Below are positions 16,001-19,000 of a stretch of DNA of 64,000 bases, piece by piece. The position numbers were made by a program. The stretch's first letter is position 1, and each line of letters starts with the position of its first letter. The DNA comes from Escherichia coli (GTDB lineage Bacteria > Pseudomonadota > Gammaproteobacteria > Enterobacterales > Enterobacteriaceae). The stretch is taken from NCBI RefSeq assembly GCF_003334355.1, contig NZ_QOWP01000001.1, one strand, 5' to 3'.

Positions 16001-19000
16001 GATGACCATTGCAGTCAAAAAGCCCCCAAAAGCCTGGACCTTTGCACGAGCAGACTTGTTTTCCATAATATTATCCTGTAGAGGAGAGAGTAATTATCCG
16101 CGGCTGATAATGTCCGCTAATTGTTTTTCTGATGATGCTGTTAAGAGTTGTTCGAGTATTTCTTCTTCGCACAGTAATTCACTTAACGTCTGAATAGCGC
16201 CAATGTGCGAATCGGCATCGGCAGCAGAGAGTCCGATGAGTAATTTAATTGGTTCGTCATTCCCCGGAAAATAAACACCTTGTTCAAGTAATGTCAAAGA
16301 CATCCCGGTTTTAAGCGCCCCACATTCCGGTCGCGCATGAGGCATTGCCACGCCTGGTGCGAGAATATAATAAGGGCCATTGTTAATGGTGGAATCTTTA
16401 ATTGCCTGAATGTAATTCTCGCTGATATAGTTTTTATCCAGCAATGATACCATCGAGAAATCGATAGCTTCCTGCCAATCTTTTGCTGAATGTATAACTG
16501 AGATTGATGATTCTGGAAAATAATCACTAAGCCGCATAAATTATCCTTATTTTATTTTTAGGGTACCGTCCGGCGGTAAAAATAAAATACTCGTGCGGTT
16601 TAATGAAAGCAATTGAGCAGGGAAACCGGTGTTTTGAAAACAGTTAATTATTAATTTCTTATATAACATTGAGTTATAGTTATAACAACAAATGTCAATA
16701 CGCATATCGTGATGCATATTACATAATTGATATTTATTGCATATAAATATTTGTGATCTACAACACGCTTTATCTATTGCTTGTCCGCAAACGGACATAT
16801 CAAGGTAATAAAAAAGGTCGCCGAAGCGACCTTTTTACCCGAAATGCTAATTACAGCAGTTCTTTTGCTTTCGCAACAACGTTATCAACAGTGAAGCCGA
16901 ACTCTTCAAACAGCAGCTCTGCCGGAGCAGATTCACCGAAGGTGGTCATACCGACGATAGCACCGTTCAGGCCAACATACTTGTACCAGTAGTCAGCAAT
17001 ACCCGCTTCTACAGCAACGCGTGCAGTAACCGCTTTCGGCAGTACGGATTCACGGTAAGCAGCATCCTGCTTGTCAAATGCGTCGGTAGACGGCATGGAC
17101 ACCACGCGCGCTTTCACGCCTTCGGCAGTCAGTTTTTCGTAGGCAGCAACAGCCAGTTCAACTTCTGAACCGGTAGCGATGAAAATCAGTTCCGGCTGAC
17201 CGGCGCAGTCTTTCAGCACATAACCACCGCGCGCGATGTTTGCCAGTTGCTCTTCAGTTCGTTCCTGCTGCGCCAGGTTCTGACGGGAGAGGATAAGCGC
17301 AGTCGGGCCGTCCTGACGCTCAACGCCGTATTTCCACGCGACCGCGGATTCAACCTGGTCACACGGACGCCATGTAGACATGTTCGGGGTCACGCGCAGA
17401 GAAGCGACCTGCTCAACCGGCTGGTGAGTCGGGCCATCTTCGCCCAGACCGATGGAGTCGTGGGTGTAAACCATCACCTGACGCTGTTTCATCAGCGCAG
17501 CCATACGTACGGCGTTACGTGCGTATTCCACGAACATCAGGAAGGTGGAGGTGTACGGCAGGAAACCACCGTGCAGGGAGATACCGTTAGCAATCGCGGT
17601 CATACCGAACTCGCGAACACCGTAGTGGATGTAGTTACCTGCAGCATCTTCGTTGATTGCTTTAGAACCAGACCACAGGGTCAGGTTAGACGGTGCCAGG
17701 TCAGCAGAGCCGCCGAGGAATTCAGGCAACAGCGGGCCGAACGCTTCGATAGCATTCTGCGACGCTTTACGGCTGGCGATTTTCGCCGGATTAGCCTGCA
17801 GTTTAGCGATAAACTCTTTCGCTTTGGCGTCGAAGTCAGACGGCATTTCGCCTTTCATACGGCGGGTAAATTCAGCCGCTTCCTGCGGATAAGCTTTCGC
17901 GTAAGCCGCAAACTTCTCATTCCATGCAGATTCTTTCGCCTGGCCTGCTTCTTTCGCATCCCACTGAGCATAGATTTCAGACGGGATTTCGAACGGCGCG
18001 TATTTCCAGCCCAGCTGTTCGCGGGTCAGGGCAATTTCAGCGTCGCCCAGCGGCGCACCGTGGGAGTCGTGGGTACCGGCTTTGTTCGGGGAACCGAAAC
18101 CGATGATGGTTTTGCACATCAGCAGGGACGGTTTGTCAGTCACTGCGCGCGCTTCTTCTACTGCGCGTTTGATGGATGCCGCGTCATGACCGTCGATGTC
18201 GCGAATAACGTGCCAGCCGTAAGCTTCGAAACGCATTGCGGTGTCGTCAGTGAACCAGCCTTCAACGTGACCATCGATTGAGATACCGTTGTCATCGTAG
18301 AACGCAATCAGTTTACCCAGCTTCAGCGTACCCGCCAGAGAGCAAACTTCGTGGGAGATGCCTTCCATCATGCAGCCGTCGCCCATGAAGGCGTAGGTGT
18401 AGTGGTCGACAATGTCGTGACCTGGACGGTTAAACTGCGCCGCCAGCGTTTTTTCTGCAATCGCCATACCGACTGCGTTGGCAATACCCTGACCCAGCGG
18501 ACCGGTGGTGGTTTCCACACCAGCGGTATAACCTACTTCCGGGTGGCCCGGAGTTTTAGAGTGCAGCTGACGGAAGTTTTTCAGTTCTTCCATCGGCAGA
18601 TCGTAACCGGTGAGGTGCAGCAGGCTGTAGATCAGCATGGAGCCGTGGCCGTTGGACAGCACGAAGCGGTCACGGTCAGCCCAGGACGGATTCTGCGGGT
18701 TGTGTTTCAGGAAATCACGCCACAGGACTTCGGCAATGTCAGCCATACCCATAGGGGCACCCGGGTGACCGGATTTGGCTTTCTGTACTGCGTCCATGCT
18801 CAGCGCACGAATAGCATTGGCAAGCTCTTTACGTGAGGACATTTTGACTCCAGATCGGATGATGAAGGGCACGCCCTTAACGACTTGACGACAGCGCGTT
18901 TTGGGCTACGCCGGAAAATTTGCCAACAATTTACCGCAAGCCGCGCGTCATGTACATGGAACATCCTTTTGCCGCTTCAGAAATCTCTGGATCATGCTCG

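What the first reader, a model, noticed from the sequence alone, without database searches (positions are those of the whole stretch)
16538..16850. AT-rich ~310-bp gap between tktA and cmtB
This is the most AT-rich stretch in the window (for example ttaattattaatttcttatataacattgagttatagttataacaacaaatgtcaatacgc) and sits upstream of the cryptic cmt operon and downstream of highly expressed tktA. Its composition is typical of xenogeneic-silencer binding sites and promoter islands.
Basis: partly seen in the sequence, partly recalled or inferred. Interest (0 to 1): 0.25.

Follow-up and report, generated by a model that had tools for sequence, protein, structure and literature searches.

The report
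AT-rich cmtB promoter and tktA terminator
The AT-rich 313-bp gap is the ordinary, anciently conserved control region of E. coli's cryptic mannitol (cmt) operon: the tktA terminator followed by a promoter region that CRP activates and that adjoins a published H-NS-bound fragment; it is not foreign DNA and not a promoter island.

Summary
Window 16538-16850 is exactly the cmtB-tkt(A) intergenic gap. Its GC is 32.3% against 52.0% for the window, the lowest of 38 intergenic regions. On some sliding-window scales it ties with the metK-galP gap.

A literature table built from published ChIP data places a top-78 H-NS-binding fragment on the cmtB 5' end and the first bases of the gap. That same table excludes the locus from promoter islands. 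The DNA is not xenogeneic: tkt-[302-347 bp, GC 29-39%]-cmtB is syntenic in at least eight enterobacterial genera.

The gap holds a conserved tktA intrinsic terminator. It also holds a CRP site already documented by Genomic SELEX, ChIP-seq and a crp-dependent reporter. New here:
- a second conserved CRP-like site exactly 44 bp away
- a conserved TTGnTT-17-TATTTT core promoter that overlaps a 13-nt inverted repeat
- a palindrome
- invariant spacing between these parts across genera

In a third of complete E. coli genomes, positions 16620-16849 are replaced by a roughly 51%-identical version of the regulatory region plus an inserted SPFH-family gene and REP elements. The locus is largely already known and of low interest.

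The parts
16810..16836 (-). tktA intrinsic terminator. Stem GGTCGC/GCGACC (16816-16821 / 16826-16831), loop TTCG, then U6 on the minus strand (16815-16810). It starts 15 nt after the tkt stop codon (16851-16853). A-run and T-run flank it on both sides, so it is symmetric.
   Evidence: Perfect 11-nt inverted repeat (I4). RNA fold -15.7 kcal/mol, z -4.05, with 0 of 200 shuffles as stable. A hairpin plus T-run sits at the same place in all 20 aligned genomes. Sequences are related (GGGTCGC..GCGGCCC) or replaced (CCAGG..CCTGG in Lelliottia and Huaxiibacter). The consensus scanner did not list it.
16752..16767 (.). CRP site 1, TGTGATCTACAACACG (8/10 of the TGTGA-N6-TCACA core).
   Evidence: Genomic SELEX site CGTGTTGTAGATCACA lies between 'cmtBA-yggPFDC<' and '<tktA', and the cmtB reporter is lower in a crp mutant (Shimada 2011, PMC3105977). 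CRP ChIP-seq target 'cmtB' in ETEC H10407 carries this exact motif (PMC4287617). After correcting a systematic ~195-bp coordinate offset, the peak lies ~11 bp from the site. A CRP-like 16-mer sits at the same distance from the -10 in 26 of 30 sequences.
16708..16723 (.). CRP-like site 2, CGTGATGCATATTACA (8/10). Its centre is exactly 44 bp from site 1. Predicted, not shown to bind.
   Evidence: A 16-mer with at least 7/10 core matches sits at this position in 28 of 30 sequences. The 44-bp spacing is the same in all of them. The mtlA control region has the same 44-bp spacing between CRP sites.
16693..16698 (-). TTGACA on the cmtB sense strand, with an invariant TTG in all genera. Role unknown. 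It is a perfect -35 hexamer, but no matching -10 lies 16-18 bp downstream.
   Evidence: Invariant columns T153 T154 G155 in alignment A1. No conserved TAnnnT at a suitable offset.
16662..16678 (.). Perfect palindrome TATAAC-N5-GTTATA. The core AAC-N5-GTT is conserved at a fixed position. Candidate binding site for an unidentified regulator.
   Evidence: Palindrome score is 6/6 in the window. The mean is 3.2/6 at the fixed position in 30 sequences, against 1.6 background, and only 0.8% of background 17-mers reach 5 or more. Invariant A176, T183 and G184 in A1.
16620..16849 (.). Allele-specific segment. It is present in 3584 of 5426 complete E. coli genomes. In 1817 genomes it is replaced by a strongly diverged regulatory region plus an SPFH ('prohibitin family') gene, REP elements and a different tkt terminator.
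16584..16612 (-). Predicted core promoter of cmtB: -35 TTGCTT (16612-16607), 17-bp spacer, -10 TATTTT (16589-16584). Predicted start near A16577, giving a ~40-nt leader.
   Evidence: TTG of the -35 is at least 90% conserved and the -10 (GTATTTT) is essentially invariant (position 5 is at least 90% conserved). The spacer sequence varies but is 17 bp in 29 of 30 sequences and 16 in E. albertii. The same holds in Phytobacter, where cmtB is not next to tkt. This part is retained in both E. coli alleles. No TSS data were found.
16548..16589 (.). Inverted repeat TATTTTATTTTTA-N16-TAAAAATAAAATA. It overlaps the predicted -10 and +1 on one side and abuts the Shine-Dalgarno sequence on the other. Candidate operator, or an RNA hairpin in longer transcripts.
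   Evidence: Perfect 13-nt arms (I1). The arms are nearly invariant across genera while the loop varies. No covariation support. RNA fold z is only -1.73.
16544..16548 (-). Shine-Dalgarno AAGGA, 6 nt before the cmtB ATG (16537-16535).
   Evidence: Read from the sequence. Conserved in most genera.

Best explanation
The gap is a conserved, composite regulatory region of the core genome.

(1) Inferred from structure and conservation: transcription of the strongly expressed tktA ends at a GC hairpin plus U6, 15-40 nt after the stop codon. This insulates the cmt operon.

(2) Shown in the literature: cAMP-CRP binds TGTGATCTACAACACG (16752-16767) and raises expression of cmtBA-yggPFDC. Inferred: a second CRP dimer binds 44 bp downstream (16708-16723).

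(3) Inferred: the core promoter is the weak TTGCTT-17-TATTTT pair at 16612-16584, which starts a ~40-nt leader. This places the CRP sites near -138.5 and -182.5. That is too far for standard class I/II contact. So activation most likely works through a phased nucleoprotein assembly or by countering H-NS.

(4) The distances CRP1-CRP2 and CRP2 to the -10 are fixed across genera. The only length change seen is one helical turn, which fits a phased assembly.

(5) The palindrome at 16662-16678 and the 13-nt inverted repeat over the -10/+1 are the likely operators of a specific, still unidentified regulator. An MtlR-family protein (YggD/FumE) is encoded in the same operon.

(6) Binding reported in the literature, effect inferred: H-NS occupies the AT-rich tract that reaches into cmtB and keeps basal expression low, hence 'cryptic'. 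AT-richness here reflects promoter and regulatory function, not foreign origin.
For: - Gene layout and exact gap.
- Composition.
- Terminator.
- CRP binding and activation: SELEX site and crp-dependent reporter covering the whole gap (PMC3105977); ChIP-seq in ETEC (PMC4287617).
- Synteny, length (302-347 bp) and GC (0.29-0.39) conserved in at least eight genera.
- Conserved blocks in alignments A1 and A2.
- CRP1-CRP2 spacing is 44 bp in every sequence where both sites scored (28 of 30). CRP1 centre to -10 start is 170.5 bp in 26 of 30, +/-1 in 2, and -11/-12 in the two Superficieibacter genomes. The -35/-10 spacer is 17 bp in 29 of 30.
- The tkt-stop-to-CRP1 segment, by contrast, varies by about 40 bp.
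- Palindrome conservation.
- H-NS: PMC3661553 Table S1.
- YggD/FumE is a full-length Pfam MtlR protein, E = 1.3e-52.
- The mtlA region has the same 44-bp CRP spacing.
Against: - No transcription start site for cmtB could be retrieved, so the core promoter and the CRP positions relative to +1 are predictions.
- The predicted promoter matches only 7/12 consensus positions, and the scanner did not call it.
- CRP site 2 has no direct binding evidence.
- The H-NS evidence is second-hand. The listed 300-bp fragment lies mostly inside cmtB and only touches the gap. The original ChIP tables were not available.
- No H-NS nucleation-motif match (TCGATAAATT, up to 2 mismatches) lies in the gap.
- No regulator has been shown to bind the palindrome or the inverted repeat. 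The cmt and mtlA upstream regions share no operator-like sequence beyond CRP sites.
Confidence: 0.8

Rival explanations
1. One reading: the gap is horizontally acquired-type AT-rich DNA, or a 'promoter island', whose main role is as a platform for xenogeneic silencers.
For: GC is 0.323, the lowest intergenic value in the window. An H-NS high-occupancy fragment is listed at the cmtB 5' end and the gap edge. The cmt operon is regarded as cryptic.
Against: The locus, its length and its AT-richness are conserved and syntenic in at least eight genera. There is no association with mobile DNA. The locus is excluded from the promoter-island set. There is no excess of promoter-like hexamer pairs. Sequence blocks and spacings are under strong constraint, and a specific activator (CRP) is documented.
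Confidence: 0.1
2. The real CRP-dependent promoter lies just downstream of CRP site 2, class II-like or class I-like as at mtlA. This would give a ~100-140-nt leader in which the 13-nt inverted repeat forms an RNA hairpin next to the Shine-Dalgarno sequence and controls translation or stability. The TTGnTT-17-TATTTT conservation would then reflect leader RNA or operator sequence, not a promoter.
For: The mtlA control region has CRP sites 44 bp apart, with the last one 151.5 bp upstream of the ATG. From my recollection of the mtl literature, that corresponds to about -41.5 with a ~110-nt leader. Invariant TTG and TG dinucleotides lie downstream of site 2. In one group of genera, TGnTAnnTA-like extended -10 sequences sit ~50 bp from the site 2 centre. 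Most one-sided substitutions in the repeat arms are A-to-G changes that keep G-U pairs on the sense strand. The whole-gap RNA fold has z -4.03.
Against: No -10-like hexamer is conserved at a canonical offset from site 2. The commonest TAnnnT is at +25.5, seen in 12 of 30, which would place CRP at -37.5. The hairpin alone is not unusually stable: z -1.73, with 15 of 200 shuffles as good. There is no significant covariation (34 of 500 shuffles), and the inner stem is paired in only 62.5% of cells. Strict length conservation and a one-helical-turn deletion fit DNA phasing better than an RNA leader. There is no Rfam match.
Confidence: 0.25
3. The short gap is a scar left when the SPFH ('prohibitin family') gene cassette found in other E. 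coli strains was deleted. Its AT-rich middle would then be leftover non-functional DNA.
For: A third of E. coli genomes, and E. albertii, E. whittamii and cryptic Escherichia lineages, carry the cassette at this site. Homology between the alleles breaks sharply at 16619/16620 and at the tkt stop codon.
Against: The short form is the arrangement in all non-Escherichia genera. It keeps the ancestral tkt terminator (GGTCGCTTCGGCGACC, as in Salmonella), which the long allele lacks. Both alleles contain the full regulatory architecture at identical distances: CRP-like sites at 170.5 and 126.5 bp from the -10. So the difference is an insertion upstream of CRP1 plus allelic divergence, not a deletion scar.
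Confidence: 0.03
4. The gap encodes an unannotated small protein (83-aa ORF, 16547-16798, minus strand) or a small RNA.
For: The ORF exists. Weak sub-threshold Rfam hits overlap the terminator.
Against: The ORF occurs only in the E. coli short allele. Other genera have no positionally conserved ORF, and two have none of 25 aa or more. All Rfam hits are far below gathering scores (20.9-22.5 bits against 45-56) and sit on the terminator hairpin. Nothing is annotated here in K-12 or strain 7/2.
Confidence: 0.03

Closest known systems
Control region of the E. coli mtlADR (mannitol PTS) operon
   Same: It lies upstream of a paralogous mannitol PTS gene. It has multiple CRP sites with the same 44-bp centre-to-centre spacing: mtlA sites at 662/706 and 779/823 of L037. 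Each operon encodes an MtlR-family protein (for the cmt operon).
   Different: There is no sequence similarity apart from the CRP cores. mtlA has four strong sites (9-10/10) against two weaker ones (8/10) here. The cmt region has the 13-nt inverted repeat and the TATAAC-N5-GTTATA palindrome, which mtlA lacks. The inducer and specific regulator of cmt are unknown.
H-NS-silenced, CRP-activated 'cryptic' sugar operons such as bgl (from general knowledge of the E. coli literature)
   Same: An AT-rich upstream region, reported H-NS binding that extends into the first gene, dependence on CRP, and very low expression in laboratory strains.
   Different: For cmt no activating mutations, antiterminator or silencer elements have been mapped. 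H-NS repression of cmtB was not demonstrated in anything I could retrieve.
Promoter islands (Shavkunov / Panyukov & Ozoline)
   Same: AT-rich DNA with reported H-NS binding.
   Different: The locus is not on the island list and was placed in the non-island H-NS control set. It shows no excess of promoter-like signals and is not associated with foreign genes.
Other AT-rich CRP-regulated intergenic regions in the same window (metK-galP, ansB-yggN, mltC-nupG)
   Same: These are among the lowest-GC intergenic regions of the window: 0.366, 0.354 and 0.423. galP and nupG carry CRP ChIP-seq sites in the same table.
   Different: The cmtB gap is the most AT-rich of them and is dimorphic within E. coli.

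Membership tests
Intrinsic (Rho-independent) terminator | GC-rich hairpin followed directly by a U-run on the transcribed strand | tested here: met
   GGUCGC-UUCG-GCGACC plus U6; -15.7 kcal/mol, z -4.05.
Intrinsic (Rho-independent) terminator | Lies just downstream of a gene end and is conserved in position in relatives | tested here: met
   It begins 15 nt after the tkt stop. A hairpin plus T-run sits at the same place in all 20 aligned genomes, with different stem sequences in some genera.
Intrinsic (Rho-independent) terminator | Transcripts actually end there | not testable with these tools
   No 3'-end mapping data were retrieved.
CRP-activated promoter region | Match to TGTGA-N6-TCACA | tested here: met
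   Site 1 and site 2 each match 8/10. Orthologous sites match 7-10/10.
CRP-activated promoter region | CRP binds in vitro and in vivo | tested here: met
   Literature, for site 1 only: Genomic SELEX and ChIP-seq. Site 2 is untested.
CRP-activated promoter region | Expression falls without CRP | tested here: met
   Literature: the cmtB reporter, which spans the whole gap (primers), decreased in a crp mutant.
CRP-activated promoter region | Site centred at a canonical class I/II position (-41.5, -61.5, -71.5 ...) relative to the start site | tested here: inconclusive
   The start site is unknown. Relative to the predicted proximal start the sites lie near -138.5 and -182.5. No conserved -10 sits at a class II or class I offset from site 2.
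Promoter island | Very high density of promoter-like signals over ~300 bp, and membership of the published list | tested here: not met
   No promoter-like pair in the gap, and 3 against 2.5 +/- 1.6 expected in 16000-17400 (this is a cruder scan than PlatProm). The locus is absent from the island table and was used as a non-island H-NS control.
Xenogeneic (horizontally acquired) H-NS-silenced DNA | AT content well above the genome average | tested here: met
   GC 0.323 against 0.520.
Xenogeneic (horizontally acquired) H-NS-silenced DNA | H-NS occupancy | tested here: inconclusive
   A second-hand list places a top-78 H-NS fragment at window ~16250-16549, touching the gap. The primary tracks are not held. 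There is no nucleation-motif match in the gap.
Xenogeneic (horizontally acquired) H-NS-silenced DNA | Patchy distribution, absence from relatives, or linkage to mobile elements | tested here: not met
   Synteny, length and composition are conserved in at least eight genera. All 6 plasmid-database hits are classed non-mobilizable: 3 are chromosome-sized records, 2 are E. coli records of 33 and 188 kb, and 1 is a Zymomonas plasmid holding only the terminator end.
Known RNA families (Rfam 15) | Covariance-model match at or above the gathering score | tested here: not met
   The best hits score 20.9-22.5 bits against thresholds of 45-56, and all lie on the terminator.

The most novel reading that the evidence does not exclude
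The fixed-distance array behaves as one phased nucleoprotein switch. The array is CRP1, 44 bp, CRP2, ~45 bp, the TATAAC-N5-GTTATA palindrome, then ~80 bp to a core promoter embedded in a 42-bp inverted repeat. An as yet unidentified specific regulator would hold it, possibly the operon-encoded MtlR-family protein YggD/FumE, whose DNA target has never been defined. This would explain why the 'cryptic' cmt operon stays silent. E. coli would also carry two anciently diverged alleles of this switch (51% identity over 159 bp) with possibly different expression.
Probability: 0.2. Interest if true: 0.45.

Novelty: already known. Interest (0 to 1): 0.15.

Why it matters
This result mostly closes a lead. 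The most AT-rich intergenic stretch of this window is core-genome promoter DNA with a documented global activator, not a sign of foreign DNA.

It is a useful caution that low GC plus H-NS binding does not imply horizontal origin. Several other low-GC gaps in the window (metK-galP, mltC-nupG) carry documented CRP sites too.

Two modest points could interest specialists. First, the architecture is strikingly rigid: spacing is invariant over ~170 bp across genera despite ~50% sequence identity. This could guide a search for the unknown regulator and inducer of the cmt operon. Second, there is a sharp two-allele polymorphism in E. coli, with or without an SPFH-family gene, and the cmtB regulatory region differs strongly between the alleles.

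Tried and rejected
- Rfam at permissive E-value over 15500-17900 gave only sub-threshold hits on the terminator.
- The 83-aa ORF across the gap is not conserved outside the E. coli short allele.
- The covariation test of the 13-nt inverted repeat plus inner stem shows no support beyond conservation. The inner stem shifts register between genera. The folding energy of the hairpin is unremarkable.
- Comparison with the mtlA upstream region to find a shared MtlR-type operator found only CRP cores in common.
- The search for a class II or class I -10 downstream of CRP site 2 found no consistent hexamer.
- The H-NS nucleation motif scan found nothing in the gap and no enrichment in the window.
- TSS data: Thomason 2015 is not held. 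The Cappable-seq supplement has no entry at these coordinates, though the stored file may be truncated.
- Primary H-NS tables (Kahramanoglou 2011, Ueda 2013) are not held.
- One literature search with loose terms returned only generic H-NS papers.
- PADLOC has no defence-system match for the SPFH protein of the long allele.
- The idea that the gap is a deletion scar of the SPFH cassette was rejected.
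Full report
**Observation**

Window 16538-16850 is exactly the non-coding gap between cmtB (16094-16537) and tkt/tktA (16851-18842). Both genes are on the minus strand, so the gap is downstream of tktA and upstream of cmtB. The window is 100% identical here to E. coli strain 7/2 and differs at 3 positions from K-12 MG1655, where the gap is 3,079,331-3,079,643 and carries no annotation.

GC is 0.323 against 0.520 for the window, about 4.3 sd below the mean of 313-bp windows. It is the lowest-GC stretch at 60, 100 and 500 bp. At 200 bp it ties, and at 313 bp it is just behind the metK-galP gap at 25174-25486. It is the lowest of the 38 annotated intergenic regions of at least 80 bp. 'Most AT-rich' depends on scale.

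**Evolutionary context: not foreign DNA**

A search of one genome per species with CmtB returned 32 loci. In Citrobacter (many species), Salmonella arizonae and diarizonae, Raoultella, Lelliottia, Superficieibacter, Silvania, Huaxiibacter and an Enterobacter MAG, tkt is followed by a 302-347-bp gap of GC 0.29-0.39 and then cmtB-cmtA.

The arrangement, the length and the AT-richness are therefore ancestral in Enterobacteriaceae. The plasmid collection gave only mislabelled chromosomes and one Zymomonas plasmid (probably engineered) carrying the tkt end.

**Anatomy (alignments A1 and A2)**

Reading on the cmtB sense strand:

- **tkt terminator.** GGUCGC-UUCG-GCGACC plus U6 begins 15 nt after the stop codon. 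It folds at -15.7 kcal/mol with z -4.05. A hairpin plus T-run sits at this place in every genome, and some genera have unrelated stem sequences.
- **CRP site 1 (16752-16767).**
- **CRP-like site 2 (16708-16723),** 44 bp further on.
- **An invariant TTG** inside TTGACA (16698-16693).
- **A perfect palindrome** TATAAC-N5-GTTATA (16662-16678). Its AAC-N5-GTT core is conserved at a fixed position.
- **A poorly conserved stretch.**
- **A predicted core promoter,** TTG(C/A)TT, 17 bp, TATTTT (16612-16584). The hexamers are almost invariant, the spacer sequence varies, and the spacer is 17 bp in 29 of 30 sequences.
- **A 13-nt perfect inverted repeat,** TATTTTATTTTTA-N16-TAAAAATAAAATA (16548-16589). 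Its left arm contains that -10 and its right arm abuts the Shine-Dalgarno AAGGA.

**Spacing**

The centre of CRP site 1 lies 170.5 bp, and that of site 2 lies 126.5 bp, from the first base of the -10 in 26 of 30 sequences. Two differ by 1 bp. The two Superficieibacter genomes are 11-12 bp shorter, which is one helical turn. The 44-bp site-to-site spacing never changes.

By contrast, the segment from the tkt stop to site 1 varies by about 40 bp. Sequence identity in the central 159 bp is only 50-58% between genera. Such length rigidity, with a one-turn exception, points to a constraint at the DNA level.

**What is already known**

- Shimada et al. 2011 (PMC3105977) found this CRP site by Genomic SELEX between 'cmtBA-yggPFDC' and tktA. 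A cmtB promoter fusion lost activity in a crp mutant. Its primers span from the tktA 3' end to the base before the cmtB ATG, so it covers the whole gap.
- Haycocks et al. 2015 (PMC4287617) list cmtB with the motif TGTGATCTACAACACG among CRP ChIP-seq targets in ETEC H10407.
- Their coordinates are shifted by about -190 to -207 bp relative to RefSeq for all three sites I could check in this window. After calibration the cmtB peak lies ~11 bp from site 1.
- The mtlA control region has four CRP sites, in two pairs 44 bp apart, the same spacing as here.

**H-NS and promoter islands**

Panyukov & Ozoline 2013 (PMC3661553) list 3077066-3077365 (U00096.2) among 78 regions of highest H-NS binding. These were bound in all four conditions of Kahramanoglou 2011 and filtered with Grainger's data. 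I converted the coordinates using the tktA-P1 and CRP-site positions. The fragment corresponds to window ~16250-16549, which is the 5' two-thirds of cmtB and the first ~12 bp of the gap.

The fragment is centred on the best motif within a larger bound region, so occupancy of the gap is likely but was not directly shown to me. That set was assembled after discarding regions that overlap promoter islands, and the locus is not in the island table.

A simple hexamer-pair scan shows no promoter-like pair inside the gap and no local excess. The H-NS nucleation motif has no match in the gap. So the silencer idea is plausible and has literature support. 'Promoter island' and 'xenogeneic' are not supported.

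**Mechanism**

My best reading has these steps.

1. tktA transcription terminates at the hairpin.
2. cAMP-CRP at site 1 (shown), and probably at site 2, stimulates the operon.
3. The weak proximal promoter fires near 16577.
4. H-NS on the AT-rich tract keeps it low.

With that promoter the CRP sites sit near -138.5 and -182.5, too far for ordinary class I/II contacts. I therefore favour action through a phased higher-order complex or through relief of H-NS. The palindrome and the -10/+1-spanning inverted repeat would be operators of an unidentified specific regulator. The operon itself encodes an MtlR-family protein, YggD/FumE (Pfam MtlR, E = 1.3e-52).

The main rival is a distal CRP-proximal promoter with a long leader in which the repeat forms an RNA hairpin. 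Several results weigh against it:

- There is no conserved -10 at a canonical offset from site 2.
- The hairpin energy is ordinary, with z -1.73.
- Covariation is lacking.

Wobble-compatible substitutions in the arms and the mtlA analogy keep this rival alive at about 0.25. No TSS data could be retrieved.

**Polymorphism found on the way**

Only 3584 of 5426 complete E. coli genomes carry 16620-16849, at 95-100% identity in all but 10 of them. In 1817 genomes that segment is replaced. These genomes keep 16538-16619, which holds the core promoter and the repeat. Upstream they carry:

- a regulatory region of the same length, with two CRP-like sites at the same distances, but only ~51% identity
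- a divergently transcribed 302-aa SPFH/'prohibitin family' gene, which is weakly HflC/HflK-like and has no PADLOC match
- REP elements flanked by two copies of a GGGCCGC..GCGGCCC hairpin, the second of which serves as the tkt terminator

E. albertii, E. whittamii and a cryptic Escherichia lineage have the long form. All other genera have the short form, which also retains the ancestral terminator sequence. So the short gap is not a deletion scar. The long form is an Escherichia-specific insertion combined with deep allelic divergence.

**Verdict**

This is a real and correctly located AT-rich feature. It is the known CRP-activated cmtB control region plus the tktA terminator, it is ancient, and a published H-NS-bound fragment adjoins it. 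Novelty is low. The conserved spacing, the candidate operators and the two-allele structure are modest additions.

Noticed in passing
window 16620-16849; L002 3083-4501, L003, L006-L008, L013: E. coli has two alleles here. 3584 of 5426 complete genomes have the short gap. 1817 carry a 302-aa SPFH/'prohibitin family' gene, REP elements and a different tkt terminator, plus a cmtB regulatory region only ~51% identical to the short allele. The homology breakpoint is sharp at 16619/16620, 7 nt upstream of the predicted -35.
   Followed up: partly
L004 (E. coli A30) 2248-2945: An IS1A insertion has removed cmtB and the 5' end of cmtA, leaving only the tkt-terminator end of the gap.
   Followed up: no
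window 25068-25502 (metK-galP gap; minimum at 25174-25486): This is the second very AT-rich stretch (GC 0.29 over 313 bp). It contains the galP CRP site TGTGATTTGCTTCACA at 25424-25439. Of the five lowest-GC intergenic regions in the window, cmtB and galP upstream carry CRP ChIP-seq sites, as does nupG upstream (0.423); no CRP evidence was retrieved for the ansB-yggN gap (0.354).
   Followed up: partly
PMC4287617 Table 1 against NC_017633.1: Reported CRP ChIP-seq peak centres in ETEC H10407 lie 188-208 bp below the motif positions in RefSeq coordinates for cmtB, galP and nupG. This indicates a systematic coordinate offset between genome versions.
   Followed up: yes
window ~47578-64000: Downstream of tRNA-Phe lies a strain-specific island with an integrase, IS66, IS110 and IS1 elements, hha, an inovirus Gp2-family gene and an Ag43-type autotransporter. 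Its intergenic regions are not AT-rich (GC 0.44-0.61). The stored strain 7/2 segment L040 did not match the window exactly at its first 200 bases, so coordinates there are approximate.
   Followed up: no
L029 ('Chryseobacterium sp. 18061') and L034 ('Alkalicoccobacillus porphyridii', 297-bp contig): Typical enterobacterial tkt-cmtB loci appear in assemblies labelled as unrelated phyla. This is probably contamination. L029 also has a 13-bp insertion in the loop of the inverted repeat.
   Followed up: no
H91, Zymomonas mobilis plasmid NZ_CP023686.1 13445-13510: The last ~65 bp of the gap (the tkt terminator end) occurs at 98.5% identity on a Z. mobilis plasmid, under a feature annotated 'phage tail protein'. 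This is probably an engineered E. coli tkt insert.
   Followed up: no
L002 4288-4307 and 4463-4482: Two direct copies of the hairpin GGGCCGCTTTCGCGGCCC flank the REP cluster of the long allele. One ends the SPFH gene and the other ends tkt.
   Followed up: no
window 11893-12402 (-) and 12424-13389 (-): yggD/fumE is annotated as 'fumarase E' but is a full-length Pfam MtlR (mannitol repressor) protein. The neighbouring yggF is annotated 'glpX' in strain 7/2. Both lie in the operon that Shimada et al. write as cmtBA-yggPFDC.
   Followed up: partly
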